Notes: generated from the sequence alone by a model not told the origin. A DNA stretch of 32,209 nucleotides from Candidatus Woesearchaeota archaeon (GCA_016185685.1 JACPNC010000023.1:1-32209), one strand, 5' to 3'; counted from the stretch's first letter, positions 296 through 13,735 are shown. Numbers and translations: made by a program.

Positions 296-861
296 CAGAA
301 GTAACCCTGCGTCTTTTAGACATTAATCGTGACTTAGAACACATCATGAGCTGGATAAATGATTCAAACATTGTTAGCAACTTTGGATGGTTTGACGCGA
401 AAGTAACTCTGGAAAGTGAACGTGCCTATTTAGAGAAAATGCTCGCGAGCAAAAGCGATAAACTTTACTCTGTTTTTGACGAACAAAATCGTTACATTGG
501 ACAGACAGGAATTCACGAAATTGATTATCGCAATAAACATGCCAGGTTTGGCTTGATTATTGCAAGCAAAGAAGAATGGGGAAGAGGATACGGAAAAAAA
601 GTAGTTGAGGGCCTGCTTGATAAAGCTTTTAGTGAATTGAACTTGCACAAAGTTTGGGGTATGTTTGTCCAACAAAATCAAAAAGCACATCACCTCTTTG
701 TAGAAAAATGTGGTTTCAGAGTTGAAGGAGTGTTACAAGAAGAATATTTTCGTGACGGCAAATACCTTCCCATGGTACGTATTGGCATGACGGAAGAAGA
801 GTATGTTAAAGCTGGATGGAGAAAAGTACTGGAACAAAAAGATGGGCAAGAGGTTTCCTAA
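292..861 (+). CDS. GNAT family N-acetyltransferase (RimJ/RimL-like)
   Basis: The 189-aa ORF has a GNAT core reading ...ARFGLIIASKEEWGRGYGKKVVEGLLDKAF..LNLHKVWGMFVQQNQKAHHLFVEKCGFRVEGVL.., which matches the R/QxxGxG/A acetyl-CoA loop and the C-terminal beta-strands typical of RimL-type enzymes. Confidence 0.85.
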   Translation: MTEVTLRLLDINRDLEHIMSWINDSNIVSNFGWFDAKVTLESERAYLEKMLASKSDKLYSVFDEQNRYIGQTGIHEIDYRNKHARFGLIIASKEEWGRGYGKKVVEGLLDKAFSELNLHKVWGMFVQQNQKAHHLFVEKCGFRVEGVLQEEYFRDGKYLPMVRIGMTEEEYVKAGWRKVLEQKDGQEVS

Positions 862-863
862 GC

Positions 864-2984
864 ATGGCAACCGTAGTAAGTGAAACTTCAGAAAACGGTT
901 TAGAAACACTTATAAAAAAAGAATCACGAGGAAAAAACACTATGAAAGATCTCCCTAACATGAAAATAGCTTTAGCCCAGATGGAAGTTATTCCCGGACA
1001 AGCTCGAAAAAACATAGCAAAAATGCTCAGCATGATTAAAGAAGCAAAACAAGCAGGGGTTAACCTCATTGCCTTTCCTGAACTATGTGTAAGTGGCTAT
1101 TTGGTAGGAGATAAATTTCTGGAAGATGCTTTCTGCACAGATATGATGGAATATGATGAAGTACTGCGAAAAGCAAGTGCACCTGATGAAGTAACTGGAA
1201 AATCAGGAATTGCAATCGCCTATGGAAATATTTTTGTCGATAAAATACAAGAAGGGCATCATCCTAATGAAGACGGAAGAAGCAGAAAATATAATGCAGT
1301 ACGAATTTTTCAAAATGGAACAGCAGCATCAAGAACAAAAAAAATATCTTTCCTTCCTGAAGGCGTGCAGCCAAAAACTCTCTTGCCAAATTACCGTTTC
1401 TTTGACGATGAGAGATACTTCTCTTCTACTGAAAATACAGCAAAAGACTTCGGAGTTTCATTACGGGAACTTCTCCAACCATTTATGATCAGAGTTGACG
1501 ACAAGGAAATTCCGGTTGGTTTTGAAGTGTGTGAAGATCTCTGGTGTGAAGATTATCGTAAAGATGGCCAATCGCTCAATCCTACCAAGATGCTGATTCA
1601 AAATGGTGCAGAACTTATTGTGAACATTTCTGCCTCTCCTTGGACCTTCGGAAAAAATAATTCACGAGATAAACGCCTTACTTTCCTTAGAAAAGATTGT
1701 GGTGAAAAGTTTGTGCCTTTTTTATATGTAAATAATATCGGCGCGCAGAATAACGGTAAAAATATTGTTACTTTTGATGGCGGTTCTACAGTATATAATG
1801 CTGATGCAAAACCGATTGCTTTGTGTAAAGAAGCATATAGGGAAGAATTGCTTTTGGTAGAAACTGAAAAAATCGCGAGGAGTTCTGTTCTAGCAAGAGC
1901 AGAAAAACCGTACATTGCCCAGAAACTTGATGCTATCATTACAGGTATTCGTCATCTTAAAAATATTCAAGGTCGCGAAGAACATCCTAAATTCTTATTG
2001 GGCATGAGCGGAGGAGTAGATAGCAGTGTTGTAGCAGCGCTTCTCGTAATGGCAGTGGGTGCTGAAAAAGCTTTAGGGATAAATATTCCCACAGAATTTA
2101 ACTCAGAAGCAACAAAGTCTGCTGCGAAATATGTAGCAGAACAATTAGGTATTGCAGATATGGTACTTCCCATTTCTGAACTTACTGCAGTCAATGAAAA
2201 ACTTCTACAAATGTATACTCCTGACGGAAAGCCAAGAAAATTAACTGCCGTGCAGAAAGGCAACATTGCAGCGAAGATTAGGGGGACTAACATCCTTTCA
2301 AATCTCTCGCCCATGTACGGCGCGTTGTTTACAAATAATGGAAACAAGCTGGAAGTTGCATTGGGTTATGCTACATTGTACGGCGATGTCAATGGTGCGA
2401 TTGCCCCTCTTGCTGATTTAACCAAAACTGAAGTGTATGAACTTGCGAGATATCTCAATGAATCTTTCTTTGGCAGAGAAGTAATCCCTTGGAAATTAAT
2501 CCCTGATAGACTGCATCGCTTTAAAAAAGATGACATCATACCTTCTGCAGAATTAGAATTCAATCAAATTGATCCTATGAAATTCGGCTACCATGATGCT
2601 TTGCTGATGATGCTTACTGACTATCAAATCAAAACAGGAGAAGATTTTCTCCAATATTTCCTTGACGGAAATCTCGGGTTAAAAATAGAGCAAACACTTG
2701 GACAAATTCATCCGATAGAAGAAGGATTTGGTTATCAGTTGATGCAACGCTGGGGTGTGCATGATGCAAAAACATTCGTGGAAGATTTAGATTGGTTCCT
2801 GCCTTTGGTCACAACAAGCATTTTCAAGCGTGTACAAGCACCACCTATTATCATCACCAGCAAAACTGCTTTTGGGTATGATCGACGAGAAAGTATGCTC
2901 CCTTGGGTTCCTACACGGGCATACGAGAGATTGAAAGAAGAAATTTTAAAATTGGGAGAATATCAGCCATTAAAACTCTTATAA
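864..2984 (+). CDS. nadE: Glutamine-dependent NAD+ synthetase (N-terminal CN-hydrolase/glutaminase domain plus C-terminal PP-loop synthetase domain)
   Basis: CN-hydrolase motifs are present (AFPELCVSGY and GFEVCEDLW), as is the PP-loop (GMSGGVDSSV). The ORF-track start at 816 overlaps the GNAT gene. ATG 864 lies just after the GNAT stop, and ATG 942 (MKDLPNMKIALAQ) is an equally plausible start. Confidence 0.9.
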   Translation: MATVVSETSENGLETLIKKESRGKNTMKDLPNMKIALAQMEVIPGQARKNIAKMLSMIKEAKQAGVNLIAFPELCVSGYLVGDKFLEDAFCTDMMEYDEVLRKASAPDEVTGKSGIAIAYGNIFVDKIQEGHHPNEDGRSRKYNAVRIFQNGTAASRTKKISFLPEGVQPKTLLPNYRFFDDERYFSSTENTAKDFGVSLRELLQPFMIRVDDKEIPVGFEVCEDLWCEDYRKDGQSLNPTKMLIQNGAELIVNISASPWTFGKNNSRDKRLTFLRKDCGEKFVPFLYVNNIGAQNNGKNIVTFDGGSTVYNADAKPIALCKEAYREELLLVETEKIARSSVLARAEKPYIAQKLDAIITGIRHLKNIQGREEHPKFLLGMSGGVDSSVVAALLVMAVGAEKALGINIPTEFNSEATKSAAKYVAEQLGIADMVLPISELTAVNEKLLQMYTPDGKPRKLTAVQKGNIAAKIRGTNILSNLSPMYGALFTNNGNKLEVALGYATLYGDVNGAIAPLADLTKTEVYELARYLNESFFGREVIPWKLIPDRLHRFKKDDIIPSAELEFNQIDPMKFGYHDALLMMLTDYQIKTGEDFLQYFLDGNLGLKIEQTLGQIHPIEEGFGYQLMQRWGVHDAKTFVEDLDWFLPLVTTSIFKRVQAPPIIITSKTAFGYDRRESMLPWVPTRAYERLKEEILKLGEYQPLKLL

Positions 2985-3364: not shown

Positions 3365-3685
3365 TCAGATAGTCACGCCTTCCTTCAAAATCATCTTCAT
3401 ATAACTGTTCTCTTTTTTCTTCAGAGCAAATTCCTGAGGAGTATAACAAAACATCTCCAGAGGAGGTTTATATTTCCATCCTTTAGAGCTTAGATACATT
3501 CGCTCTAGAAAAGGAACGTCTTGAAAATATTTAGACACAAGTAATACATCAACATCGCTATGCTTCAACGCATCACCTCGTGCACGGCTGCCATAAAGAA
3601 TCATTTTTTCTACTTTCATTTTTTTGGAAAGGATGACCTTGAAACTCTTCAATTGTTTTACAATTCCAATTTCTGCTTTACCCAT
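3365..3685 (-). CDS. Minimal nucleotidyltransferase (MNT), antitoxin-type partner of the HEPN protein
   Basis: The motif LYGSRARGDALKHSDVDVLLVS fits the Pol-beta-fold NTase signature G-S-x(9-13)-D-x-D. The gene overlaps the upstream HEPN gene by 28 nt. Confidence 0.85.
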   Translation of the reverse strand: MGKAEIGIVKQLKSFKVILSKKMKVEKMILYGSRARGDALKHSDVDVLLVSKYFQDVPFLERMYLSSKGWKYKPPLEMFCYTPQEFALKKKENSYMKMILKEGVTI

Positions 3686-4038
3686 GCAATAACCTCCACT
3701 GCTTTTCTTAGGTGTGTAGAAGAAGTACTTTCTGTATGAACTTCTGCAGGAACTCCGGAAGCAGCATCAGGATAGCGAGAAACAGCGTATTCAGGATTAA
3801 GCAGGGCACAAGCATCAAATATTTCTCTTGGCGCTTTTGCATCTTTTGCAAAATAAATTAAACTGTGGCCTAACGCAGGTTCTTTGTGCGTATGCAAATA
3901 TAATGCTTTTAGAGCTTTCTCTGCTGCTTGTTGCGACCAAAAAGAGCAAGCATAATACTTTTTATTCTTGAGATCTACCTTAGCTGTTTCTAAGTCTTCA
4001 ACAGCTTGTTTCCACCAATCAAGTGCTTCTTTGCGCAT
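3658..4038 (-). CDS. HEPN domain protein (HEPN-MNT module)
   Basis: The 126-aa helical protein has a typical HEPN N-terminus (A..WWKQAVEDLETAK..L....Y.ACSFWSQQAAEKALKALYL). Its position immediately 5' of an MNT gene, with overlap, supports the call. Confidence 0.8.
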   Translation of the reverse strand: MRKEALDWWKQAVEDLETAKVDLKNKKYYACSFWSQQAAEKALKALYLHTHKEPALGHSLIYFAKDAKAPREIFDACALLNPEYAVSRYPDAASGVPAEVHTESTSSTHLRKAVEVIAWVKQKLEL

Positions 4039-4320: not shown

Positions 4321-4767
4321 ATGACTCAAAAACATCGACCACAAAATCATCTTACTACAGACATAATTTATCATCATAATTCTACGCCAGGAATTGTTCT
4401 CATCACCAGAAAAAATCCTCCTTACGGAATAGCTATCCCGGGAGGTTTTCTTGAAGAAGATGTAACTCTGGCAGAAAATGCCATGAAAGAACTTCAGGAA
4501 GAAACAGGTATAGTTGCGCTGATAACTAAAAAGAATCTTTTTAACATTTATGATACCCCTAACCGTGATCCACGAGGAAGGATGGTAAGCCACGTGTATG
4601 CGATTGAGGGAAATGCTTTACCTACTGCTGGAGATGATGCAGCAACTGCTAGAGTATACAGCATTGCAGAGATAGTTTCTTCTTTACAGCAAAACAAATT
4701 TGCTTTTGATCATGAAAAAATCTTGTGCGATTATCTGAAAGAAAAAAGATATCTCAAACAGATGTGA
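4321..4767 (+). CDS. Nudix hydrolase, ADP-ribose pyrophosphatase-like (resembles the Nudix half of NadM-Nudix proteins)
   Basis: The Nudix box is GGFLEEDVTLAENAMKELQEETGI, and RDPRGRMVS and FAFDHEKIL motifs follow. Start chosen at ATG 4321 (MTQKHRP), preceded by gagagg. The ORF-track start at 4138 only adds a Lys-rich translation of an A-rich spacer. Confidence 0.8.
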   Translation: MTQKHRPQNHLTTDIIYHHNSTPGIVLITRKNPPYGIAIPGGFLEEDVTLAENAMKELQEETGIVALITKKNLFNIYDTPNRDPRGRMVSHVYAIEGNALPTAGDDAATARVYSIAEIVSSLQQNKFAFDHEKILCDYLKEKRYLKQM

Positions 4768-4771
4768 AACT

Positions 4772-5398
4772 ATGACTAAACCCTACCAACGCCTCGGCGT
4801 AATTGGAAGATTTAAACCTTTACATAAAGGGGGAGCAGTGATGCTAGAAACACTTTGTGAAAAAGCAGACCATGTCATCATCGGCATTGGCAGTAGTAAT
4901 AAGTACAATGTGAGAAATCCATTTACAGCGGAAGAATCTCAAGCCATGGTGGAAGCATTCTTATCTTCTCGTTTTAATAATTATGAAATTCTTTATGTGC
5001 CTGATTTTGCTCATATTTCAGGATATGAAGATGGGCAACAATGGCGCGTATATGTGAAAGAACATTTTGGAAAATTGGATGCTTTTGTCTCTGGAAATTC
5101 CTACGTGGGCGATTTGTTAAAAGAAGACTATCCTATTATTCACCCTGCAGATTTAATCTCTGCTGATAAAAAAATAATGATGCGAGGAAGTGCGGTGCGT
5201 TTAGAAATGGCCCGTGGGGGAGATGCTTGGAAAGAAATGGTTCCAGAAAACGTTGCAAAATACCTAGTTGAAAATAAACTTATTAATCGTTTTAGAAAAG
5301 AGTTTGGATTGCAAACCTTAATTGCGCTTGTAGATGGTGTAGAATATACACGTTCAGAAACAGAAGAAGAAGAAAAAGAACATCCAAAAGAAGAATAA
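4772..5398 (+). CDS. nadM: Archaeal-type nicotinamide/nicotinate mononucleotide adenylyltransferase (NadM family) with a variant HxGH motif
   Basis: GVIGRFKPLHKGG..HVIIGIGSSNKYNVRNPFTAEE parallels archaeal NMNAT (GRFQPFHKGH...IIGIGSAQ....NPFTAGER). The C-terminal GSAVRLEM..G..W.EMVPENVAKYL parallels the ISGTEIR region. Confidence 0.8.
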   Translation: MTKPYQRLGVIGRFKPLHKGGAVMLETLCEKADHVIIGIGSSNKYNVRNPFTAEESQAMVEAFLSSRFNNYEILYVPDFAHISGYEDGQQWRVYVKEHFGKLDAFVSGNSYVGDLLKEDYPIIHPADLISADKKIMMRGSAVRLEMARGGDAWKEMVPENVAKYLVENKLINRFRKEFGLQTLIALVDGVEYTRSETEEEEKEHPKEE

Positions 5399-5449: not shown

Positions 5450-6229
5450 ATGACAACTATCGGCAATTATAAAATTGTACGAGAAATCGCTGAAGGCGGA
5501 TTTGGTAGAACATACGAAGCGCGCCATCTTCTACTTGATGAAAAAGCCTGCTTAAAACAAAACTTAAAAGTAACTCCTGAAGATGAAAAACTTCTGCGCC
5601 AAGAAGCAAAATTGTTATGGAATATCCAACATTATTCTCTCCCAGCAATGCGCGATTATTTTAAGATTTCTGATGGGAGTTTTATTATGGCCATGAGTTT
5701 TGTAGAAGGAAAAACTCTTGAACACAGTGTAAAAAAACATACTGCCATCCATCCTGAAGATGTCTGTTGGATTTCACAACGAGTATTAAACGCATTAAAT
5801 TACTTGCATTATCATGGAATTATTCATGGAGATGTAAAACCAGCAAATATCATCGTTCAGCCGCAGTTACATAATGCATTTCTTGTTGATTATGGTCTTT
5901 CCAGCTTGCGACCAAAACGGTACTCTGCTACTATCGGGTATACCCCAGTATTTGCTGCGCCGGAATTTACCCAAGGAAAAACGCCCTTGCCCTCATCAGA
6001 TTTGTATTCACTTGGTCTTACCATGATATACGCTTTAGGAGGAGATCCTATTGCAAAAAGTATGCCAAATCACGTTCCACAACCCATTCAAGATTTTTTC
6101 AAACAGTTTGTTGTTTATGATCCATTGGATAGACCAGATTGGCAGAAAAAAGATTTGGTAGAACGGTTGTCAGACATTCGCTATGAAGTTTTTGGACGCA
6201 GACACGTAGCTGAATCAACAAAGAAGTGA
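5450..6229 (+). CDS. Hanks-type Ser/Thr protein kinase (cytoplasmic, kinase domain only)
   Basis: All core kinase elements are present: G-loop AEGGFGRTY, catalytic-Lys region ACLKQ, catalytic loop HGDVKPANIIV, DYG (DFG equivalent) and FAAPE. Confidence 0.85.
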   Translation: MTTIGNYKIVREIAEGGFGRTYEARHLLLDEKACLKQNLKVTPEDEKLLRQEAKLLWNIQHYSLPAMRDYFKISDGSFIMAMSFVEGKTLEHSVKKHTAIHPEDVCWISQRVLNALNYLHYHGIIHGDVKPANIIVQPQLHNAFLVDYGLSSLRPKRYSATIGYTPVFAAPEFTQGKTPLPSSDLYSLGLTMIYALGGDPIAKSMPNHVPQPIQDFFKQFVVYDPLDRPDWQKKDLVERLSDIRYEVFGRRHVAESTKK

Positions 6230-6332
6230 ATTACTAAAAAAAGTAAAACTACGATTAAAAAAGTAAATTTAAAACAAATTTGTAAAAAAATTGAGCTAGC
6301 GGATGCTCTCAAAAAATACCGCGGAGGAAAAC

Positions 6333-7304
6333 ATGTACAGCTGGGGATCAGACGATACAGCCGGATGGAAAAATCCGGGAGGGTACAAGTACGACGAAGC
6401 AAAAGCACCATATTTAGAAGATTTGGCTAAAAAAGCTGAAAAAGAAGGACCAAGAACTTATCTAAAAAAGAGAGAACCAGACATGAAACAGGTGGATCCG
6501 AAAGGAAAAACTATTTCCACTCAAAGCAAAAATCCCATCATTTTTGGAATTGATGGCACCGGCTCAATGCAGAAATGGCCGGCAGAATTTTTTGACCGCG
6601 CACCATTGTTGTACCAAACATTGTCGCAATATCGTGATGATGTGGAAATCTCTTTTTCAGTCATCGGTGATGCTATAGCAGATGATTTCCCTCTACAGGT
6701 GGCAGACTTTGACAAAGGAGTTGCTTTGGATGCAAAACTAAAAGCATTGCATGGCGAAGGCAGAGGAGGACCAGGAATTCGTGAAAGTTATGAGCTCTTT
6801 GCTTATTTTATGCTGGAACATGCAGAAACGCCAAAAGCAGAAAAGCCATTCTTATTTATTCTTGGCGATGAAAAATTTTACGATGCCGTAAACCCTGCAC
6901 AAGTAGAGAAATACATTGGCGATAAACCTCAAGAGATGTCTTCCATAAAAGTATGGCAGGAATTAGCAAAAAGATACGACATTCGCCTTTTGCATAAAGA
7001 ATATCCAGGAAGAGATGAAGAAGTCCTAACACAGTGGCGTGAGGCAATAGGAACGCAGAACATTGTTCCCATCTATGATTCTTTGCGGGTCGTGGATGTA
7101 GCTATGGGTTTAGTTGCAAAAAGCTGGGGACATTTTGATGATTTTGAAAAGAATCTAGGTGCGCGTCAGGATGAAGAAGGAGTAAGTACAGTGATGCAAT
7201 CAGTACGTGCTGCTCCAGAGTTTGCAGAAGGAATTAAATCCATCTACAAAGGAGCTGTTGCCATTGGCAAGAGCAATAAAAGTAAAAGCCTTATTAAAAA
7301 GTAA
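6333..7304 (+). CDS. von Willebrand factor A (vWA)-like domain protein
   Basis: A MIDAS-like motif IIFGIDGTGSM is followed by alternating hydrophobic strands (ISFSVIGD, FLFILGDE). Start chosen at ATG 6333, preceded by GGAGG (6323-6327). The ORF track starts at 6303. Confidence 0.65.
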   Translation: MYSWGSDDTAGWKNPGGYKYDEAKAPYLEDLAKKAEKEGPRTYLKKREPDMKQVDPKGKTISTQSKNPIIFGIDGTGSMQKWPAEFFDRAPLLYQTLSQYRDDVEISFSVIGDAIADDFPLQVADFDKGVALDAKLKALHGEGRGGPGIRESYELFAYFMLEHAETPKAEKPFLFILGDEKFYDAVNPAQVEKYIGDKPQEMSSIKVWQELAKRYDIRLLHKEYPGRDEEVLTQWREAIGTQNIVPIYDSLRVVDVAMGLVAKSWGHFDDFEKNLGARQDEEGVSTVMQSVRAAPEFAEGIKSIYKGAVAIGKSNKSKSLIKK

Positions 7305-7383
7305 ATAAGGATAAAAAAACAAATAAAAAACAAAATAATTTGAAAAACTGAATGAAATGAAGTTTTTCAAAAGGAGGAAAAAA

Positions 7384-8256
7384 ATGGTAACTAAAAAAAT
7401 ATACGATACAACGGGAAAAATTTTTGAACAAGCGAGTAAATTGTACCAGCCCGGACTACTGGAAGATCTCAAACGTATTGAGCCGGGAGAAATTGTAGTT
7501 GTACGTGGGGAATATGATCACGTTGAAGTCTTGCTAGATACATTAAAAATTCCCTACGAAACAATCGGCAAAGAAGAACTGGGAAGCAACAATAGCGGTA
7601 GAGTACTGCTTGCAAATTGTGCAACCTATAGTTCAGTGCCAAAAGAAGTCAAGGAAGGAGTAGAAGCTTTTGTCGCTGACGGAGGAAGATTAGTAAGTAC
7701 GGATTGGTCTTTGGGATTAGTAACAAAAGTCTTTCCAGGTAAGCTAACAATGACAAAAAAAACTGGTGACGATGTAGTAGAGATAGAATGCCCGACAGAT
7801 ATCGCCAGAAGATTCATTGGCATGAATTACGCCCAATGCAAACCTCAATGGTGGTTGGAAAGTAGTAGTGATGTGTACGACATCGGTGAGGGAGTTACAC
7901 CGATAATAACCAGCGAAGAAATGGAAACAAAATATGGCAAACCTTATGTTGCGGTTGGTTTTCCTCATGGTAAAGGGGAAGTTTTCCATTTCATTAGCCA
8001 TTTGGAATTGCAGAGGACTCGACAGAAAACTAAAGAACAGTCAGGTAACCTGGATGATTTCCTCAAGAAGATGAAAGTAGAAAAGACAGCTGAGATGGAT
8101 GACGCAACCGTTGCAGAATTAGAAGCGGCATATAGTACTTTAAGTACGGTTGCTTATCTTTGTCTGAGAACTCCCGTGCTCAATAGCGAAGGGAAGAGTG
8201 TGTACTTGGGAGCTTCCAAGAAAAGTGAAGGGCCAAAAAGCATGAAATTGGCATAA
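7384..8256 (+). CDS. Conserved-looking hypothetical protein, third gene of the kinase-vWA cluster
   Basis: Long ORF. AGGAGG (7372-7377) lies 6 nt before ATG 7384, whereas the ORF track starts at 7357. I recognise no motif. The alpha/beta-like N-terminal half (VVVRGEYDHVEVLL...VLLANC...AFVADGGRLVSTDW) is vaguely reminiscent of GATase1/ThuA-like folds, which is a weak impression only. Confidence 0.55.
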   Translation: MVTKKIYDTTGKIFEQASKLYQPGLLEDLKRIEPGEIVVVRGEYDHVEVLLDTLKIPYETIGKEELGSNNSGRVLLANCATYSSVPKEVKEGVEAFVADGGRLVSTDWSLGLVTKVFPGKLTMTKKTGDDVVEIECPTDIARRFIGMNYAQCKPQWWLESSSDVYDIGEGVTPIITSEEMETKYGKPYVAVGFPHGKGEVFHFISHLELQRTRQKTKEQSGNLDDFLKKMKVEKTAEMDDATVAELEAAYSTLSTVAYLCLRTPVLNSEGKSVYLGASKKSEGPKSMKLA

Positions 8257-8280
8257 AGTAGAAACAAAGCAGGCAAAAAG

Positions 8281-8309
8281 TTGTTTTTTTATTTTTTTAT
8301 TTTATTTTT
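8281..8309 (+). terminator. Oligo-T tract, likely archaeal transcription terminator for the 7384-8256 gene
   Basis: The sequence ttgtttttttatttttttattttattttt begins 25 nt after the stop codon. Archaeal RNA polymerase terminates at oligo-T runs. Confidence 0.45.
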
Positions 8310-8320
8310 AAGAGAGTTAT

Positions 8321-8361
8321 AGTAATTGTGAAATATTTCCGAACATTTGTTCACAATTACT
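8321..8361. repeat. Perfect 12-bp inverted repeat (hairpin 1) with a 17-nt spacer
   Basis: agtaattgtgaa (8321-8332) is the exact reverse complement of ttcacaattact (8350-8361). Confidence 0.9.
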
Positions 8362-8363
8362 AA

Positions 8364-8408
8364 TAGCAAATGTGTGATAAAAATATTCGATACTTAACAC
8401 ATTTGCTA
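8364..8408. repeat. Perfect 12-bp inverted repeat (hairpin 2) with a 21-nt spacer, abutting the TATA-like region of the next gene
   Basis: tagcaaatgtgt (8364-8375) is the exact reverse complement of acacatttgcta (8397-8408). The sequence ctatatg follows immediately. Confidence 0.9.
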
Positions 8409-8468
8409 TATGAAAGAAATTAAAAAAAAATACTTGAAATACAGACAAAAAAATCAGAGAGGCAAAAT

Positions 8469-9461
8469 ATGACACTGATGAATAAAACAGCAACAGAAGA
8501 AAACAAAGAACTTAAGGGAAAAACACTAGAGAAAACAATAACAGAACCAAAAGCAATCGTGACCGTTCCACCTTATGCTCCATTTATTGATGAGATAGTA
8601 GAACATCCGCTCGTTAGTGGGATTCGTTTAAATATAGTCATGCCTCTCAAAGGTAGTAGAAGAGATAACCTCAAACGATTACAAGATCTCGCCGGCTATA
8701 AAGATCTCTGGATAGATTTAAAATGCCGTCAATTACGAATAAAAACGTATGGTGTTCCGCCATTTACTGAAGTAGAGTTGTCGCATATTATTGGCGTAAA
8801 TACTCCAACAACCGCATATTTTACGGGAGGAAAAGAAGGAAAAATACCAGTAACTGTGCTTGCTGTTGAAGGAAACAAACTAATAATGCAAGATGGACCC
8901 CATCGTGTAGTTGGACCGGGAGAAAGTATAAACATCCCAGATTCTTCATTAAAGATTGAAGGATATTTTACAGAGACCGATTTACAATATATCACTGCTG
9001 CAAAAGAAATAGGTTTGCATCGCTACATGCTTTCATTTGTAGAAAAAAAAGAAGACATAGATGCCTTGCGTGGATTTGATAAAAATGCAAAAATAATTGC
9101 AAAGATTGAATCACAAAAGGGATTAGGATATGTTGCAAAAGAGTGGAATAAAAATCAGGAAACTCGCTTAATGGCTGCACGGGGAGATTTGTATATGGAA
9201 GTGAAAAAACCGCATGAAATCTTAGATGCTGTAGAAGGAATTGTTGCAAAAGATCCATCGGCCATTGCCGCGTCAAGAATTTTAGATTCTTTTGCAGATT
9301 CATTAGAACCTACCTGTCAAGACATCAGTGATATTGATAACCTCTTGCGCATGGGTTATCGTACCTTTATGCTTGGAGATGAAGTCTGTTTACGAAGAGA
9401 ATCCGTGCTTAGTGCATTAAATTTATTAAACGCAGTGTGTGAGAGGTATAAAGGAAAGTAA
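8469..9461 (+). CDS. Pyruvate kinase-like TIM-barrel protein lacking the C-terminal allosteric domain
   Basis: Pyruvate kinase (PK) landmarks occur in order: IRLNIVMPLKG (vs NFSHG), WIDLKCRQLR (vs LDTKGPEIR), IIAKIESQKGL (vs KIENxEG), MAARGDLYMEV (vs MVARGDLGVEI), AASRILDSF (vs ATQMLESM) and MLGDEV (vs MLSGET). The protein is only 330 aa, against about 470 for canonical PK. Confidence 0.65.
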   Translation: MTLMNKTATEENKELKGKTLEKTITEPKAIVTVPPYAPFIDEIVEHPLVSGIRLNIVMPLKGSRRDNLKRLQDLAGYKDLWIDLKCRQLRIKTYGVPPFTEVELSHIIGVNTPTTAYFTGGKEGKIPVTVLAVEGNKLIMQDGPHRVVGPGESINIPDSSLKIEGYFTETDLQYITAAKEIGLHRYMLSFVEKKEDIDALRGFDKNAKIIAKIESQKGLGYVAKEWNKNQETRLMAARGDLYMEVKKPHEILDAVEGIVAKDPSAIAASRILDSFADSLEPTCQDISDIDNLLRMGYRTFMLGDEVCLRRESVLSALNLLNAVCERYKGK

Positions 9462-9535: not shown

Positions 9536-10045
9536 ATGAACCTCATAACATTTTTACAGAACAATGAAAATTCACGAAAGGTTTTTGGAAAGCGTGAGCT
9601 CAAGATTATTGAAAAACAACTTTTAGGCATTTCGCTCACCCAATCTGAAGCAAATAGACTCTCGCGAGACATCAGGAGAAAATTTTTGTTTATCAAAGAG
9701 TGCTCTCATTTTGAACGGGATTTTCCTCTTAAAAAAGGAGCAGAGATTAAAAAACAGATCTCTGAAATTAAAGAAACAATCTTAAAGGACGTATCATCGC
9801 CAAGAATTACAAAAATAGTTCTCTTTGGGTCTACTGTAGAAAATAAACTCACTTCCCGCTCAGATATAGACGTTGCAGTTATTTTTGAGCAAATAAACTT
9901 ACAAGAAGCCACATTATTTAGAAAGCGGATTCTCGGAAAATCCCCGAGTCGCGCTGATATTCAGGTGTATAATATTCTCCCCACTAAAATAAAAAAAGAG
10001 ATAAATCTCAAAGGAAAAACACTTTATGAGCGCGCAAAAAATTAA
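9536..10045 (+). CDS. mntA: MntA-type nucleotidyltransferase with an N-terminal HTH-like extension
   Basis: The C-terminal half carries VLFGSTVENKLTSRSDIDVAVIF (GS...DxD NTase motif). The N-terminal ~85 aa contain an HTH-like segment (GKRELKIIEKQLLGISLTQSEANRLSRDIRRK). Confidence 0.8.
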   Translation: MNLITFLQNNENSRKVFGKRELKIIEKQLLGISLTQSEANRLSRDIRRKFLFIKECSHFERDFPLKKGAEIKKQISEIKETILKDVSSPRITKIVLFGSTVENKLTSRSDIDVAVIFEQINLQEATLFRKRILGKSPSRADIQVYNILPTKIKKEINLKGKTLYERAKN

Positions 10046-10123
10046 AGAAAATCCTGAAAAATGGCTATCCCCTACCATGAATGGTGGGGATTTACGCCAT
10101 TTTTCCTAGACGGATTTTCTAAA

Positions 10124-10190
10124 ATGAAAAGTAGCGAAATCTCAGCATTCATCTCCAACTATTAATAGTGGAGATTTCTGCTCTTTTCAT
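10124..10190. repeat. 67-nt imperfect palindrome (possible MITE-like insertion) lying in the hepT reading frame
   Basis: The outer arms atgaaaagtagcgaaatctc (10124-10143) and gagatttctgctcttttcat (10171-10190) are reverse complements apart from a 4-nt internal stretch. The inner arms are ctcca/tggag, and the centre is the palindrome ctattaatag, which supplies in-frame TAA-TAG (10163-10168). Confidence 0.7.
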
Positions 10191-10276
10191 TTAAAGATAA
10201 AATTGAAGAAGTAGAACAATATTTAGAAGAACTTACTACTTTTCTTCCTGATGATTTTGAAGTATACGAACATAAT

Positions 10277-10600
10277 GTGGAAAAAAAAGCGGCTTGTGAA
10301 CGTTATTTTGAAAAAATCGTGGAGAGCTTAGTTGATATTTCTTTTCTTGTTCTAAAAGAAGAAGGAGGGAGAATTCCAGAAGAAGACACACAGGCATTTG
10401 ATCTGTTGAGTAAAAAAGAAATAATTCTAGAAGCTCTCTCCACACGCTTAAAAGAAGCAAAAGGCATGCGAAATATATTGGCTCATGAATATGGAATTGT
10501 TGATGACCGGATTGTTTTTGAATCTATAACTTCAGAGCTTGTTGAAGATACAAAAACATTTTTAAATGCAATAAAAAAATATCTCAGAGGTAAAAAATGA
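10277..10600 (+). CDS. hepT: HepT (DUF86) HEPN-family RNase toxin homolog; the N-terminus appears truncated or interrupted
   Basis: The RX4HXY-type motif GMRNILAHEYGIVD is present. The ORF-track start is a GTG, but DUF86-like sequence (FKDKIEEVEQYLEELTTFLPDDFEVYEHN) continues in frame upstream to the TAA-TAG at 10163-10168, with no ATG in between. Confidence 0.75.
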   Translation: MEKKAACERYFEKIVESLVDISFLVLKEEGGRIPEEDTQAFDLLSKKEIILEALSTRLKEAKGMRNILAHEYGIVDDRIVFESITSELVEDTKTFLNAIKKYLRGKK

Positions 10601-11655
10601 CTGCAAAAAGCACAATAGAACACTATCAATCCGTATTTTTAGGCTGCGCTATCGGTGACGCTTTAGGCATGCCAGTGGAAGGAATGAAACCTACACAGAT
10701 TCAGAAATATGTAGGAAGGATAACTGAATTTATTGATCCAGTAGAAGTGCGAAATGATAAAGGCGCTTTAATCTGTATAGATGAATTTGGCAAATTGGGA
10801 TATTACAACATTAAATTATTTGCAGGAGAATATACGGACGATACTATTCGCACCATTGCTTTGGCAGAATCATTGATTCATTGCAAAGAAATAAATTTAG
10901 AAGATATTGCTCAAAGACAGCTTGCAGAATATACAAAACGACTGCGAAAAGACGGAACAGTCAAAGGAGGTTTTGGAGGAACCACCATAGCAGGATTCAA
11001 AAATCTTCAAGCAGGAAAATCATACCAAGAATCAGGAGTTATTGGAGGACCAGGAAATGCTCCGGGTATGATGATGCATCCTCTTGGTTTGTATATGGAT
11101 ACGAAACAAGTAACTGAAGGAATTGAAAAGATTTTACAAGCGGCAATTGCTATAGGAAAAATTACTCATCTCGATCCACGTTCGCTCGCTTCTGGTGTTG
11201 TGCAAGCACATGCTATTTATGGAATTTTAAATGGCAATACACGGGAAGATTTCTTGTCTGCAGCAGAAGCGGTGTGCAGAAGATTTGAACAGCCAGCAAC
11301 ACAAGAATTTTCTTTAGCAGAGCAAGGAAGTTTATTGGAGCGACTAGAATGGACCACTTCACATCAAGATGTTTCTACTGAAGAAGCGCATCAGCACTTA
11401 GGGTCGGGAAGTAAAGTATATTCTTCTTATCCCTTTGCTTTGTTCATGATGCAGAAATACTGGGATGATCCCGTTGAAGGATTGATTGCAACGGTGAATT
11501 ACGGCGGCGATTGCGATACTACCGGGGCAATCTTTGGTGCGCTTGCAGGAGCGCGGCATGGACTGTGCTGGCCAAAAGAGTGGATGGAAACAGTGCAGAA
11601 TGGTGAGTATTTGAAAAAACTTGGAAGCAAGATGTGGGAGATGAAAAGAGAGTAA
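10597..11655 (+). CDS. ADP-ribosylglycohydrolase family protein (ARH/DraG-like)
   Basis: The N-terminal signature FLGCAIGDALGMPVEG and the C-terminal signature NYGGDCDTTGAIFGALAGA match the two metal-binding motifs of the family. The start overlaps the hepT stop (ATGA). Confidence 0.9.
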   Translation: MTAKSTIEHYQSVFLGCAIGDALGMPVEGMKPTQIQKYVGRITEFIDPVEVRNDKGALICIDEFGKLGYYNIKLFAGEYTDDTIRTIALAESLIHCKEINLEDIAQRQLAEYTKRLRKDGTVKGGFGGTTIAGFKNLQAGKSYQESGVIGGPGNAPGMMMHPLGLYMDTKQVTEGIEKILQAAIAIGKITHLDPRSLASGVVQAHAIYGILNGNTREDFLSAAEAVCRRFEQPATQEFSLAEQGSLLERLEWTTSHQDVSTEEAHQHLGSGSKVYSSYPFALFMMQKYWDDPVEGLIATVNYGGDCDTTGAIFGALAGARHGLCWPKEWMETVQNGEYLKKLGSKMWEMKRE

Positions 11656-12032: not shown

Positions 12033-12755
12033 ATGAAACACCCCATTACCGCTTTAGACGAAATTATACTTGCACAATTTCAGAAAGTTACCGATAAAGC
12101 CGCAAAGTGTGGATATAGTAAGTATGATTTGAAAACTCCAATTGATTATATCTCTGGAATTAGTATGAGTAGTACTGGCTGTTACATAATTGGAGCAGCA
12201 GTTTCTTCAGAAATTTCTAGTGGAAGTATTTTTGCTGTCGGATTTGGAACTTTATATGCACTTGCAGGAATTGGAATTACATTAATCATAGGTAGAGCCA
12301 ATACAAAAAATGAAAATAAAGAATTAGAAAAAATGATAAAAACAGGCGCCGCCCAACTCCCAGAATTAGATATCGGAAGTATATTTTATCGACTTTCTTG
12401 CCTTGGATTTGGAAGTCGCGCAATTTATAATGGCGCTTGTCAATTAACTCAAGCAGTGCCAACCATGGATAATTTCCAAGACCACATTTATGGTGGACTG
12501 ATTATTGCTTCTTTAGGGATTGCAGCAGTAACAATGGGCATCGGAAACTATCTCAAAAACACCACCATGATTCCTCCAAGAACCAAAAAGCTCCACCAGC
12601 GATTGTATGAAAAAGCAAAAGATTTTTTATCTCCTGCTCCGCAATTACAACCGGTGAGAGTTCCTGTAAACAACAATCTTGAAAATTCTCTTCAAAGTGC
12701 TTTTGAAAATTCTTTTGAAAAACATCTTGAAGATTATTCTGGGAGTTACTCATGA
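12033..12755 (+). CDS. Integral membrane protein, function unknown
   Basis: There are at least three Gly/Ala-rich hydrophobic segments (CYIIGAAVSS, IFAVGFGTLYALAGIGITLIIG, GGLIIASLGIAAVTMGIG). The stop overlaps the nadK start (ATGA). Confidence 0.6.
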   Translation: MKHPITALDEIILAQFQKVTDKAAKCGYSKYDLKTPIDYISGISMSSTGCYIIGAAVSSEISSGSIFAVGFGTLYALAGIGITLIIGRANTKNENKELEKMIKTGAAQLPELDIGSIFYRLSCLGFGSRAIYNGACQLTQAVPTMDNFQDHIYGGLIIASLGIAAVTMGIGNYLKNTTMIPPRTKKLHQRLYEKAKDFLSPAPQLQPVRVPVNNNLENSLQSAFENSFEKHLEDYSGSYS

Positions 12756-13735
12756 ACCCCCTCATCGTTTACAAAAAAAGCGTGTACGAACTCTACAAAG
12801 ACTCCCCTGACCCAGAAGTACGTGCCTATGCTCAGGAAAACGAAATAAAGTTAAAGAAAGGATCAGAAGAACAAAAAAGGACTCTAGAAACGATCACCTC
12901 AGCAGTACAACACTTAGGAATGAGTTATAAAGAATTATATCGCGCAGAACTACAGAATTTATCTCCAGAAGATTTTGCTAAACATGATTTGATTATTAGC
13001 GTTGGTGGAGATGGCACTTTCTTAGAAGTTTCTCACTACCTTCATCAAGCAGATGTGCCGTTACTGGGAGTAAATTCTGATCCAAATAGTAGCGTAGGTT
13101 TTTTCTGCTCTGCTTATAGAGAAAATTTTGCTGAGATACTAGAGAATATAGGAACTCTGCCCCGCACACAACTTCCCCGTTTGCAACTGATCAGAAACGA
13201 TATATCTTTACCAGAGCTTGTTTTAAATGACGTTCTTTTTGCGCATCATAATCCGGCTTCTAACACCCGATTTGTCTTAGAAGTGAGTAAAGAGCCCATT
13301 AGCAACCAAGAAAAAAAAGACATTAGCAATGAAGACAACAAAGAAAAAAAAAATAAAAAAGAAAAAGAATTTGAACCTTCAATTTCCTATCGCGGTAGCA
13401 ACGGAATTTTAGCGTGTACTTCTTCTGGTTCGACCGCTTGGATGTACCAGTTGGGTGAAGAACCATTTGACTTTTCCTGTTCGCTTCTTAAGTATCGTGT
13501 ACGTGATGCACGTGGGGAGCAAGGACGTTTTGCTCAGGAATTAAAAATAACTTCCCAAACAAGGGAAGGAAAAATTTGGATTGATGGTGCGCATTTAAGT
13601 TATGATTTGGGTTTAGGCGGAGTACTAGAAATCCAGCCAGGAACTCCATTGCTGGTAGTAGGAGATTTGCAGGAGAAAAGAAAAAAATGGCTGAAGAAAC
13701 AAAAGGCTAAAGAAACAAAAGAAGTGAAACTATGA
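12752..13735 (+). CDS. nadK: NAD+ kinase
   Basis: The GGDG motif (DLIISVGGDGTFL), the NDV motif (LVLNDVLF) and a TSSGSTAWMYQLG region (equivalent to PTGSTAY) are present. A Lys/Glu/Asn-rich insertion (SNQEKKDISNEDNKEKKNKKEKEFEP) lies between conserved blocks. Confidence 0.85.
   Translation: MNPLIVYKKSVYELYKDSPDPEVRAYAQENEIKLKKGSEEQKRTLETITSAVQHLGMSYKELYRAELQNLSPEDFAKHDLIISVGGDGTFLEVSHYLHQADVPLLGVNSDPNSSVGFFCSAYRENFAEILENIGTLPRTQLPRLQLIRNDISLPELVLNDVLFAHHNPASNTRFVLEVSKEPISNQEKKDISNEDNKEKKNKKEKEFEPSISYRGSNGILACTSSGSTAWMYQLGEEPFDFSCSLLKYRVRDARGEQGRFAQELKITSQTREGKIWIDGAHLSYDLGLGGVLEIQPGTPLLVVGDLQEKRKKWLKKQKAKETKEVKL

What the first reader, a model, noticed from the sequence alone, without database searches (positions are those of the whole stretch)
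5450..8256. Hanks kinase - vWA - unknown protein cassette (TerY-P-like triad without a phosphatase)
Three co-directional, closely spaced genes encode a soluble Ser/Thr kinase, a vWA/MIDAS protein (DGTGSM) and a 290-aa protein of unrecognised family. The last two have strong GGAGG sites. Kinase plus vWA plus PP2C phosphatase triads (TerY-P type) are known from comparative genomics as stress or conflict modules. Here the third position is filled by an uncharacterised protein instead of a phosphatase, in a genome that otherwise looks streamlined.
Basis: partly seen in the sequence, partly recalled or inferred. Interest (0 to 1): 0.6.

Follow-up and report, generated by a model that had tools for sequence, protein, structure and literature searches.

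The report
Kinase, vWA, amidotransferase-like, mini-pyruvate-kinase module
The three flagged genes are real, but they belong to a four-gene unit (protein kinase, metal-site adaptor, unstudied hydrolase-like protein, shortened pyruvate-kinase-like enzyme) inside the NAD-recycling operon of a tiny DPANN archaeon; it is probably a phosphorylation-controlled enzyme complex, not a TerY-type defence triad.

Summary
All three genes exist as described. They are an active-looking Hanks kinase (5450-6229), a vWA/MIDAS protein seen only by fold (6333-7304) and a 290-aa protein (P3, 7384-8256).

P3 has a class-I glutamine-amidotransferase-like fold with Asp, not Cys, at the nucleophile elbow. It belongs to a large unannotated family (1677 clusters) whose longer members are often fused to FHA, PBZ or kinase domains.

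The unit is larger than flagged. In about 30 Woesearchaeal loci the order kinase-vWA-P3-PK-like barrel never varies, and in 22 of 25 it sits directly after NMNAT in an NAD salvage cluster. Variants lack P3 or vWA, so the constant part is the PK-like enzyme plus a protein carrying the vWA N-terminal motif. A huge phage carries kinase-vWA-PK-like; Bixzunavirus phages carry kinase-vWA-PurA-like.

vWA and P3 share a disordered C-terminal tail ([MG]KS...KSxxL). This tail is absent from the two modules that lack a kinase.

TerY-P membership fails: there is no PP2C, no zinc ribbon or OB fold on the kinase, and no TerY HMM match.

My best reading is a kinase-controlled, scaffolded mini-PK complex serving nucleotide/NAD metabolism, with P3 as an accessory hydrolase-like subunit. 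The mechanism is inferred. I found no publication describing it.

The parts
4324..4767 (+). Nudix hydrolase, NAD-cluster neighbour (ADP-ribose pyrophosphatase type by context)
   Evidence: Pfam NUDIX 2.7e-14. Found upstream of NMNAT in most related loci. The start at ATG 4324 is inferred from the length of the orthologues.
4772..5398 (+). NMN/NaMN adenylyltransferase-like gene (cytidylyltransferase fold), directly upstream of the kinase
   Evidence: Pfam CTP_transf_like 3.3e-7. Directly upstream of the kinase in 22 of 25 loci with enough flank, and also in L039, L040, L050 and L051.
5450..6229 (+). Hanks-type Ser/Thr protein kinase: 259 aa, kinase domain only, non-RD (HGD)
   Evidence: Pkinase 9e-33. 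Catalytic residues K36, E52, D128, N133, D147, T165 and APE are conserved in 32 orthologues.
6333..7304 (+). vWA-fold protein with MIDAS (D74xT76xS78), 323 aa. It has a conserved N-terminal motif MYSWGxDxxxW..GxYxYxxAxxxY (residues 1-28, nt 6333-6416) and a disordered C-terminal KS...KSKSL tail (about nt 7221-7304).
   Evidence: AF2 pLDDT 88.7. Foldseek vWA/integrin beta-I 3.5e-6. Invariant columns. phrog_2971 5e-23. N-motif shared with P3'. Tail statistics.
7384..8256 (+). P3: 290-aa protein with a class-I glutamine-amidotransferase-like fold. Asp107 sits at the nucleophile-elbow position. D45, C79, D107, H202 and H206 are invariant across the family. The disordered C-terminal tail is GKSV...KSMKLA (about nt 8185-8256).
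   Evidence: AF2 pLDDT 88.9. Foldseek GH42 trimerisation domain 2e-8, GATase PH1346 1e-7, and the STM3548/3rht GATase1-like proteins. Invariant residues. Family of 1677 clusters.
8319..8412 (.). Double-hairpin repeat element (MITE-like) inserted between P3 and the PK-like gene
   Evidence: At least 10 copies at 85-96% identity on other contigs of the same genome. Fold z-score -4.2. In relatives the P3-PKb spacer is 0-100 nt or the genes overlap.
8469..9461 (+). PKb: pyruvate-kinase-like barrel without the C-terminal regulatory domain. It is the fourth and most constant gene of the module.
   Evidence: Pfam PK 7e-15, over the cut-off. It aligns to E. coli PykF 127-334 and keeps KIE (K212, E214) and RGD (D240). 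R53, N55, D83, K85, R87, R90, K212, E214, D240, S269, R270 and D304 are invariant in 34 sequences. It follows P3 or vWA in every locus.
816..2984 (+). Glutamine-dependent NAD synthetase (CN-hydrolase + NAD_synthase), the upstream part of the NAD cluster
   Evidence: Pfam. Syntenic in L010, L011, L013, L019, L020, L022 and L024.
10597..11655 (+). ADP-ribosylglycohydrolase, downstream member of the NAD cluster
   Evidence: Pfam 1.8e-59. Downstream of PKb in L005-L007, L010, L011 and L020, and near the cassette of a huge phage.
12752..13735 (+). NAD kinase-like gene, downstream member of the NAD cluster
   Evidence: Pfam NAD_kinase 2.3e-11. Downstream of PKb in L010, L015, L018, L020, L022, L031 and L032.

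Best explanation
The flagged genes are three of the four genes of a portable module: Hanks kinase, vWA adaptor, P3 and a C-domain-less pyruvate-kinase-like enzyme (PKb). In this Woesearchaeal lineage the module is built into the NAD salvage operon, directly after NMNAT.

Proposed mechanism. Items 1 and 2 are largely shown; items 3 to 5 are inferred.

1. PKb is the catalytic effector. It is probably a PEP-dependent phosphotransferase acting on ADP, other NDPs or a nucleotide intermediate. It keeps the PK Mg/PEP/catalytic-Lys residues but has lost the allosteric C domain.

2. PKb always comes with a partner that carries the N-terminal YSWG...W...Y.Y..A...Y motif. That partner is either the vWA protein or, in vWA-less modules, a P3 paralogue with the motif fused on.

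3. vWA (through its MIDAS) and P3 act as trans-acting regulatory or scaffold subunits that replace the lost C domain.

4. The kinase controls the assembly by phosphorylating or docking on the shared, disordered bipartite Ser tail ([MG]KS...KSxxL) of vWA and P3. This would resemble the way ArnC-type kinases phosphorylate the C-terminus of the vWA protein ArnB in Sulfolobus.

5. P3 has conserved Asp/Cys/Asp/His/His residues in the canonical amidotransferase cleft, and its family is repeatedly fused to FHA, PBZ and kinase domains. It is most likely a hydrolase-like or ligand-binding subunit recruited to signalling marks.

The net role would be to couple PEP-driven nucleotide phosphorylation to NAD(P) resynthesis under phospho-control.
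For: Synteny: STK-vWA-P3-PKb is invariant in L001-L033 wherever the flank allows. NMNAT lies directly upstream in 22 of 25 loci, and NadE, Nudix, ARH and NadK lie around it.

Variants: STK-vWA-PKb without P3 (L039, L040, L045, L046, L048, L050, L051). J-domain-STK-PKb-P3' without vWA (L041, L042). vWA-PKb without STK (L047, L049).

Shared N-motif between vWA and P3': blastp 3e-6.

Shared tail: 87 of 98 P3 and 71 of 120 vWA, against 1 of 120 PKb and 5 of 123 non-archaeal P3-family proteins. The tail is kept in the huge-phage vWA and is absent in the two STK-less modules.

Catalytic residues of the kinase and of PKb are conserved.

PKb co-exists with a canonical PK in 7 of 12 PKb-positive genomes, so it is not simply the housekeeping PK.

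Genome co-occurrence among 61 relatives: P3 with NadE p=8e-4, PKb with NadE p=5e-5, P3 with PKb p=1e-4.

P3 fold and cleft residues. P3-family fusions: FHA in 11 of 44 long members, PBZ, Pkinase, and P3-FHA in the Woesearchaeal loci L043 and L044.

Fusion and neighbours: PKb'-QueC fusion with ThyA-like, Ham1, NrdD-like and AAA_28 neighbours.

Phages: STK-vWA-PKb plus ARH in phage LR745208.1, and STK-vWA-PurA-like in Bixzunavirus.

ArnA/ArnB precedent: PMC6509490 and PMC12852372.
Against: No physical interaction, phosphorylation or enzyme activity has been shown; all of this is inference from sequence, fold and gene context.

The link between the tail and the kinase rests on only two STK-less modules.

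The module is patchy: P3 in 1 of 201 and PKb-type in 4 of 201 class-level genomes, and 7 of 61 and 12 of 61 relatives. It occurs as several paralogous copies per genome and in phages. This fits an accessory or conflict role as well as a metabolic one.

Paralogous copies are not NAD-linked.

The AF2 model packs the vWA N-terminal motif against the vWA domain with fair confidence, so it may be structural rather than a docking peptide.

The substrate of PKb is unknown. The K+-site Ser/Thr of PK look replaced; I read this by eye and it is not a tool result.

This genome has no FHA reader.
Confidence: 0.45

Rival explanations
1. This is a conflict module (defence, or viral counter-defence) centred on NAD or nucleotides. 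Kinase plus vWA would sense infection or NAD depletion and switch on the PK-like or P3 effector. This is TerY-P-like in logic though not in membership.
For: Distribution is patchy, with several paralogous copies per 1-1.7 Mb genome. The cassette is present in a 485-kb phage and in about 200 mycobacteriophages. The kinase scores against PADLOC kinase models. Toxin-antitoxin pairs flank the cluster in the window. NAD is a known battleground; this last point is from my own knowledge.
Against: The PADLOC kinase hits are generic Hanks-domain matches, and vWA, P3 and PKb match no PADLOC model. The cassette holds no PP2C, nuclease, pore or other toxic effector. It sits at a fixed position inside a biosynthetic NAD operon in 22 of 25 loci. 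P3 is absent from phages. The TA pairs are absent from relatives at those positions.
Confidence: 0.2
2. P3 is the functional replacement for the missing phosphatase. It would be a metal-dependent 'eraser' hydrolase on an amidotransferase-like scaffold that resets the kinase-written marks on the vWA and P3 tails.
For: D45, C79, D107, H202 and H206 are invariant and lie at the canonical catalytic cleft positions. Fusions to FHA (a pThr reader), to a kinase and to PBZ (a poly-ADP-ribose reader) suit an enzyme recruited to modification marks. No PP2C_2 is found in this genome.
Against: I know of no phosphatase with this fold; that is from my own knowledge, not a test. Most cassettes work without P3, so it is not an obligatory eraser. 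Only one PP2C Pfam family was searched. The spatial clustering of the residues could not be measured because no model coordinates were available.
Confidence: 0.15
3. P3 is a glutaminase or amide-donor subunit for NAD synthetase, which is a housekeeping role in NAD synthesis.
For: It has a class-I amidotransferase-like fold and is always in genomes with NadE. Some relatives (L001, L002) have a short, ammonia-type NadE.
Against: The window's own NadE already carries a CN-hydrolase glutaminase domain. The elbow nucleophile is Asp, not Cys. P3 always lies between vWA and PKb, never next to NadE. Bacterial and rotifer family members have unrelated contexts and FHA or PBZ fusions.
Confidence: 0.04
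4. The shared C-terminal tails are targeting peptides (for example for a protein compartment, secretion or degradation) rather than kinase substrates.
For: Two different proteins of one operon end in the same short motif after a disordered linker. That is the usual layout of cargo-loading or sorting peptides; this is from my own knowledge.
Against: The motif is absent exactly where the kinase is absent. I saw no shell or translocon gene in about 40 loci, but I ran no dedicated search for one. Invariant Ser residues preceded by Lys look like phospho-acceptors.
Confidence: 0.06

Closest known systems
TerY-P triad (TerY-like vWA + PP2C phosphatase + Ser/Thr kinase with C-terminal zinc ribbon or OB fold; Anantharaman et al. 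2012 as summarised in PMC11090510)
   Same: A Hanks-type kinase is encoded next to a MIDAS-bearing vWA protein as a compact, mobile cassette. A metal- or phospho-dependent switch is the plausible logic in both.
   Different: There is no PP2C and no zinc ribbon or OB fold on the kinase. The vWA is not recognised by any vWA or TerY HMM. The constant third partner is a PK-like (or PurA-like) nucleotide enzyme. The setting is a biosynthetic NAD operon.
Sulfolobus ArnA/ArnB/ArnC-ArnD archaellum regulatory module (PMC6509490, PMC12852372)
   Same: It is an archaeal Hanks kinase plus a vWA protein whose C-terminus carries the phosphorylation sites, which in turn control partner binding. Here vWA and P3 have conserved Ser-bearing disordered C-termini, and P3 paralogues in related archaea are fused to FHA domains.
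   Different: There is no FHA/zinc-finger ArnA partner in this genome. The vWA model shows no beta-sandwich domain. There is no detectable sequence similarity to any PDB chain. The output is an enzyme, not a transcription or motility response.
Canonical pyruvate kinase (PykF/PKM: PF00224 barrel + PF02887 C-terminal domain)
   Same: PKb matches PF00224 above the cut-off and keeps the catalytic Lys and the Mg-binding Glu and Asp, together with the N-terminal Arg/Asn/Asp/Lys/Arg residues.
   Different: The whole allosteric C domain is missing (about 300 aa against 470). The T278 equivalent is Ser. The K+-site Ser/Thr appear replaced. PKb co-exists with a canonical PK in 7 of 12 genomes and is fused to QueC in one lineage.
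Class-I glutamine-amidotransferase-like domains without glutaminase activity (GH42 trimerisation domain, ThuA/DUF4350-type, STM3548 2gk3, Planctomyces 3rht)
   Same: Same fold (Foldseek 2e-8 to 2e-6). Weak Pfam hits of family members to Glyco_hydro_42M, ThuA and DUF4350.
   Different: P3 has its own invariant set, D45, N78-C79, D107-W108, E159 and H202xxSH206, which those families lack. It also has an N-terminal helical extension, a KS tail, and FHA, PBZ and kinase fusions.
Kinase / hypothetical protein / PurA-like gene trio of Bixzunavirus mycobacteriophages (e.g. phage Colt gp251-253), and the kinase-vWA-PK-like trio of uncultured huge phage LR745208.1
   Same: They share the vWA family (phrog_2971; tblastn 1e-17 to 8e-26) downstream of a Ser/Thr kinase and upstream of a nucleotide-metabolism enzyme.
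   Different: The phages have no P3. In Bixzunavirus the enzyme is PurA-like. The mycobacteriophage vWA lacks the KS tail.

Membership tests
TerY-P triad | vWA protein of the TerY type with a MIDAS motif | tested here: inconclusive
   The vWA fold and DxTxS MIDAS are present. No Pfam, NCBIfam or PADLOC vWA or TerY model matches, so the fold criterion is met but family membership is not shown.
TerY-P triad | PP2C-type phosphatase encoded in the cassette | tested here: not met
   None of the genes from 292 to 17077 matches a PP2C model. PF13672 has no hit in the whole 1.0-Mb assembly. PF00481 and PF07228 were not searched genome-wide.
TerY-P triad | Ser/Thr kinase fused at its C-terminus to a zinc ribbon or OB fold | tested here: not met
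   The kinase is 259 aa, and the Pkinase match together with the conserved subdomain XI covers the whole protein. Paralogues carry an N-terminal J domain instead.
ArnA/ArnB/ArnC-type phospho-switch | vWA protein phosphorylated on its C-terminus by a Hanks kinase | not testable with these tools
   The only evidence is indirect: a conserved Ser-bearing disordered tail that co-varies with the presence of the kinase.
ArnA/ArnB/ArnC-type phospho-switch | FHA-domain partner that reads the phosphorylated tail | tested here: not met
   PF00498 has no hit in this genome. P3-FHA fusions do exist in related genomes (L043, L044).
Class-I glutamine amidotransferase | GATase1 fold | tested here: met
   Foldseek against PDB: PH1346 1e-7, the GMP-synthetase GATase subunits, and the GH42 trimerisation domain 2e-8.
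Class-I glutamine amidotransferase | Catalytic Cys at the nucleophile elbow with a His/Glu dyad | tested here: not met
   The strand 102-106 / helix 107-116 junction carries the invariant D107. H202 and H206 follow the last strand. C79 lies after strand 3, not at the elbow. I assigned these positions from the DSSP string, not from a structural superposition.
Pyruvate kinase | PK barrel domain with catalytic Lys and Mg-binding Glu/Asp | tested here: met
   PF00224 scores 55.4 bits against a cut-off of 30. The alignment to PykF keeps KIE and RGD. These residues are invariant in 34 sequences.
Pyruvate kinase | C-terminal alpha/beta regulatory domain (PF02887) | tested here: not met
   The protein ends at the position equivalent to PykF residue 334 of 470. 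Orthologues are about 300 aa. No PK_C hit.

The most novel reading that the evidence does not exclude
P3 founds a new enzyme family: a metal-dependent 'eraser' or processing hydrolase on an amidotransferase-like scaffold, with Asp at the elbow and an HxxxH motif. Cells in all three domains of life would bring it to phospho-Thr or poly-ADP-ribose marks through FHA, PBZ or kinase fusions. In Woesearchaeota it would work with a kinase and a vWA adaptor to switch a regulatory-domain-less pyruvate-kinase-like enzyme that feeds NAD/nucleotide synthesis. That would be a previously unknown way of controlling a central phosphotransfer enzyme in trans.
Probability: 0.15. Interest if true: 0.8.

Novelty: new variant of a known kind. 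Interest (0 to 1): 0.6.

Why it matters
DPANN archaea have minimal genomes, and how they manage cofactors and energy is poorly understood. If this reading is right, a subset of them keep a tightly conserved four-protein device (55-65% identity across genera) inside their NAD recycling operon. It joins a protein kinase to a stripped-down pyruvate-kinase-like enzyme through two unannotated protein families.

It would be an example of allosteric control being replaced by a separately encoded, phosphorylation-driven scaffold. It would also give a first functional handle on two things. One is a large orphan domain family (1677 clusters at 50% identity, spanning archaea, bacteria and a rotifer). The other is a vWA family that is also carried by about 200 mycobacteriophages and by a huge phage. 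Its presence in phages suggests that viruses use the same device to manipulate host nucleotide or NAD supply.

Tried and rejected
1. HMM searches of vWA and P3 against Pfam, NCBIfam and PADLOC found nothing usable. P3 also has no PHROG match.

2. Profile searches of both families against PDB sequences found nothing.

3. I rejected the idea that P3 supplies glutaminase to NadE. The window's NadE has its own CN-hydrolase domain and the elbow residue is Asp.

4. I rejected the idea that PKb is simply the housekeeping pyruvate kinase. Canonical PKs co-exist with it in 7 of 12 genomes.

5. I asked whether the two hairpins at 8321-8408 are an operator of the NAD regulator NrtR. The genome has no NrtR winged-helix match, and the hairpins are a dispersed repeat with at least 10 copies, so I read them as a MITE-like insertion.

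6. The bacterial P3 homologues whose contexts I looked at (L004, L035, L036, L037) are not next to vWA or NAD genes. The vWA-P3 pairing is therefore specific to the Woesearchaeal module.

7. Literature searches for this cassette returned nothing relevant.

9. Model coordinates are not exposed, so I could not measure whether the conserved P3 residues cluster in space.
Full report
**Observation.** The window holds three co-directional ORFs at 5450-6229, 6333-7304 (an alternative upstream ATG lies at 6303) and 7384-8256 (alternative at 7357). GGAGG boxes lie 7-8 nt before the ATGs at 6333 and 7384. All orthologues of gene 2 start with MYSWG, which fixes that start.

Gene 1 is a 259-aa Hanks-type kinase (Pkinase 9e-33). 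Across 32 orthologues the Gly loop, K36, E52, the HGD128-x-K-P-x-N133 loop, D147-Y-G, GYT165 and the APE motif are conserved. It therefore looks active, is of the non-RD type, and has no sensor or nucleic-acid-binding domain.

Gene 2 matches nothing in Pfam, NCBIfam or PADLOC and nothing in PDB by sequence profile. Its AlphaFold2 model (pLDDT 88.7) is a vWA domain (integrin beta-I and vWF-A3, Foldseek 3.5e-6, prob 1.0). D74-x-T76-x-S78 is invariant in 38 homologues.

Gene 3 (P3) has no family match either.

**What P3 is.** Its model (pLDDT 88.9, pTM 0.86) has a class-I glutamine-amidotransferase-like fold. The best PDB matches are the GH42 'trimerisation' domain (2e-8), the Pyrococcus GATase PH1346 (1e-7), GMP-synthetase GATase subunits and the uncharacterised GATase1-like proteins STM3548 and 3rht.

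The strand-to-helix junction where amidotransferases carry the nucleophilic Cys (strand 102-106, helix 107-116) carries the invariant D107-W108. C79 follows strand 3. H202 and H206 (HFISH) follow the last strand. I assigned these positions from the secondary-structure string, so this is inference. D45, C79, D107, H202 and H206 stay invariant even in an alignment of 44 distant, multi-domain family members. This points to a catalytic or metal/ligand site rather than a purely structural domain.

The family is large. A profile search of 1.84 billion representatives found 1677 clusters at E<=1e-3 and 268 at <=1e-30, including bacterial members and one from a rotifer. Among the 44 long members, 11 carry an FHA domain, 2 carry PBZ (poly-ADP-ribose-binding) zinc fingers and 1 carries an N-terminal Ser/Thr kinase; others carry HEAT, SH3 or GGACT. 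P3-FHA fusions also occur in Woesearchaeal genomes (L043, L044; FHA 1.6e-18 and 2.8e-16). P3 domains are thus repeatedly wired to readers and writers of phospho-Thr and ADP-ribose marks.

**The unit is larger than flagged.** Homologues of vWA and P3 come from Woesearchaeota/Nanoarchaeia (DPANN) metagenome bins and are adjacent in NCBI locus tags. I fetched 3 contigs plus 29 loci from species-representative genomes and mapped the window's proteins onto them.

- The order kinase-vWA-P3-PK-like barrel (PKb, window 8469-9461) is invariant wherever the flank allows.
- NMNAT lies directly upstream of the kinase in 22 of 25 loci with enough flank.
- Nudix and NadE lie before NMNAT, and ADP-ribosylglycohydrolase and NAD kinase often lie after PKb.
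- NAPRTase, nicotinamidase and an NrtR-type regulator flank the cluster in L001 and L002.
- The window has the same layout: GNAT, glutamine-dependent NadE, Nudix, NMNAT, kinase, vWA, P3, PKb, ARH, NadK. It is interrupted by two HEPN/MNT toxin-antitoxin pairs that relatives lack at those positions.

In this genome P3 and PKb are 212 nt apart. That spacer holds an oligo-T run and a double hairpin (8319-8412). The hairpin is a dispersed repeat with at least 10 copies at 85-96% identity on other contigs. In relatives the two genes are 0-100 nt apart or overlap.

**Which parts are constant.** Further loci from relatives show several variants.

- Kinase-vWA-PKb without P3: L039 and L040 are NAD-linked; L045, L046 and L048 are not; L050 and L051, from other lineages of the class, are NAD-linked.
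- J-domain-kinase-PKb-P3' without vWA: L041 and L042.
- vWA-PKb without a detectable kinase: L047 and L049.

The constant element is therefore PKb plus one partner. In the vWA-less modules the P3 paralogue carries, through a low-complexity linker, the N-terminal motif of the vWA protein (MSYSWGxDxxxxW...GGFxYxSAKAxY; blastp 3e-6). So the partner can be defined as 'a protein bearing this N-terminal motif'.

In L049, PKb is fused to a QueC-like PP-loop domain. In L047 and L049 the pair sits among ThyA-like, Ham1, QueC-like, NrdD-like, AAA_28 and AAA_5 genes. The J-domain-kinase paralogous modules (L041, L042, L046) lie next to an AbrB-PhoU-type regulator gene; L047, which has no detectable kinase, has a similar ORF that I recognised only by eye and did not scan.

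The vWA family is also found in phages. tblastn hits 203 phage records, and the protein matches phrog_2971 at 5e-23. The 485-kb uncultured phage LR745208.1 encodes kinase (40% identity), vWA (34%) and PKb (36%) in a row, with an ARH gene 4 kb downstream. In Bixzunavirus mycobacteriophages (for example Colt gp251-253) the order is kinase, vWA homologue, PurA-like adenylosuccinate synthetase. P3 has no phage homologue. The general architecture is kinase - vWA - nucleotide-metabolism enzyme, and P3 is a lineage-specific addition.

**A shared tail.** Both AF2 models end in a disordered segment (pLDDT<50). In the two different proteins these segments carry the same bipartite motif, [MG]KS[VISK] then 8-14 residues then KSxxL:

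- P3: ...GKSVYLGASKKSEGPKSMKLA
- vWA: ...GIKSIYKGAVAIGKSNKSKSLIKK

A C-terminal [KRTV]Sxx[LIVF] occurs in 87 of 98 archaeal P3 and 71 of 120 vWA homologues. It occurs in only 1 of 120 PKb homologues and 5 of 123 other P3-family representatives. The tail is present in vWA proteins of P3-less modules and in the huge-phage vWA. It is missing from the vWA proteins of the two kinase-less modules (L047, L049) and from the mycobacteriophage homologue. The simplest reading is that the tail is the kinase's substrate or docking site. The sample of kinase-less modules is only two.

**PKb.** It matches PF00224 above the cut-off and aligns to E. coli PykF residues 127-334 with the catalytic KIE and RGD motifs intact. 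R53, N55, D83, K85, R87, R90, K212, E214, D240, S269, R270 and D304 are invariant in 34 orthologues and paralogues. The whole C-terminal regulatory domain is absent, and orthologues are about 300 aa. Among 61 related genomes, 12 have a PKb-type gene, and 7 of those also have a canonical PK. PKb is therefore not merely the cell's pyruvate kinase.

**Distribution.** P3 was found in 1 of 201 genomes sampled across the class and in 7 of 61 close relatives. PKb-type genes were found in 4 of 201 and 12 of 61. All 7 P3-positive genomes have a strong NadE match, against 17 of 54 others (Fisher p=8e-4). PKb tracks NadE (p=5e-5) and P3 tracks PKb (p=1e-4). This is a patchy accessory module tied to genomes that can make NAD.

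**Interpretation.** I read the cassette as a kinase-controlled, scaffolded mini-PK complex serving nucleotide/NAD metabolism. PKb is the effector. vWA (through its MIDAS) and P3 are trans-acting partners that stand in for the lost allosteric domain. The kinase acts on their shared Ser tails.

The nearest experimentally studied logic is the Sulfolobus Arn module, where Hanks kinases phosphorylate the C-terminus of the vWA protein ArnB and thereby control binding of the FHA protein ArnA (PMC6509490, PMC12852372).

Membership in TerY-P, as defined in PMC11090510, fails on three counts. There is no PP2C in the cassette and no PF13672 match in the genome. The kinase has no zinc ribbon or OB fold. 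The vWA matches no TerY or vWA HMM.

A conflict-system reading remains possible because of the patchiness, the paralogy and the phage copies. P3 as a phosphatase-like eraser is an attractive but untested sub-hypothesis. P3 as a NadE glutaminase and P3 as an unrelated housekeeping gene are both unlikely.

**Earlier notes of this scan.** Notes from other genomes independently describe the kinase-vWA-mini-PK cassette in other DPANN NAD operons, in bacteria and in large phages, as well as a PurA-like variant. I treated them as leads. I confirmed the huge-phage and Bixzunavirus cases myself. I did not test the bacterial claim.

The P3-specific results are new here: the fold with Asp at the elbow, the FHA, PBZ and kinase fusions, the N-motif swap between vWA and P3', the shared KS tail and its co-variation with the kinase, the PKb-QueC fusion, and the repeat-element insertion.

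Noticed in passing
window 8319-8412 (spacer 8257-8468): The double perfect hairpin between P3 and the PK-like gene is a dispersed repeat. At least 10 copies at 85-96% identity lie on other contigs of the same about 1-Mb genome, so it is a MITE-like element and not a locus-specific operator. Its 3' end supplies the TATA-like 'ctatatg' in front of the PK-like gene.
   Followed up: partly
window 12752-13735 and 13732-15264: An NAD-kinase-like gene overlaps by 4 nt a second, 510-aa protein with a weak Hanks-kinase domain (Pkinase 1.1e-10). This puts a second kinase in the same NAD cluster, apparently translationally coupled to NadK.
   Followed up: no
L041 10187-11191 (-), L046 4161-5231 (+); by N-terminal sequence also L042 and L048: Paralogous copies of the module use a kinase with an N-terminal DnaJ (J) domain carrying the HPD motif (PF00226 8e-14 and 1.6e-8 in L041 and L046; L042 and L048 show the same N-terminus by eye). 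In L041, L042 and L046 the module lies next to an AbrB/MazE-PhoU-type regulator gene.
   Followed up: partly
L049 5497-7212 (-); L047 7019-12544: In another order of the class the PK-like barrel is fused to a QueC-like PP-loop domain (571 aa). Its neighbours are a short ThyA-like protein, an AAA_28 kinase-like protein and an NrdD-like protein. L047 has vWA'-PKb'-Ham1-ThyA-like-QueC-like-...-AAA_5. This is a second, non-NAD nucleotide context for the vWA-PKb pair.
   Followed up: partly
L043 8034-9194, L044 6937-8145: Stand-alone P3-FHA fusion proteins (386 and 402 aa) occur in Woesearchaeal genomes, away from any kinase/vWA/PK-like module.
   Followed up: partly
P0267 (Rotaria sordida CAF0906928.1): A bdelloid-rotifer protein joins three PBZ (poly-ADP-ribose-binding) zinc fingers to a C-terminal P3-family domain. 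It is a eukaryotic member of the family, possibly acquired horizontally.
   Followed up: no
L052 (Mycobacterium phage Colt 153316-156786): About 200 cluster-C (Bixzunavirus) mycobacteriophages encode a Ser/Thr kinase, a homologue of this vWA protein (annotated as hypothetical) and a PurA-like adenylosuccinate synthetase, in a row near the genome end.
   Followed up: partly
window 3365-4038 (-) and 9536-10600 (+): Two MNT/HEPN-type toxin-antitoxin pairs are inserted into the NAD cluster at positions where related genomes have none.
   Followed up: no
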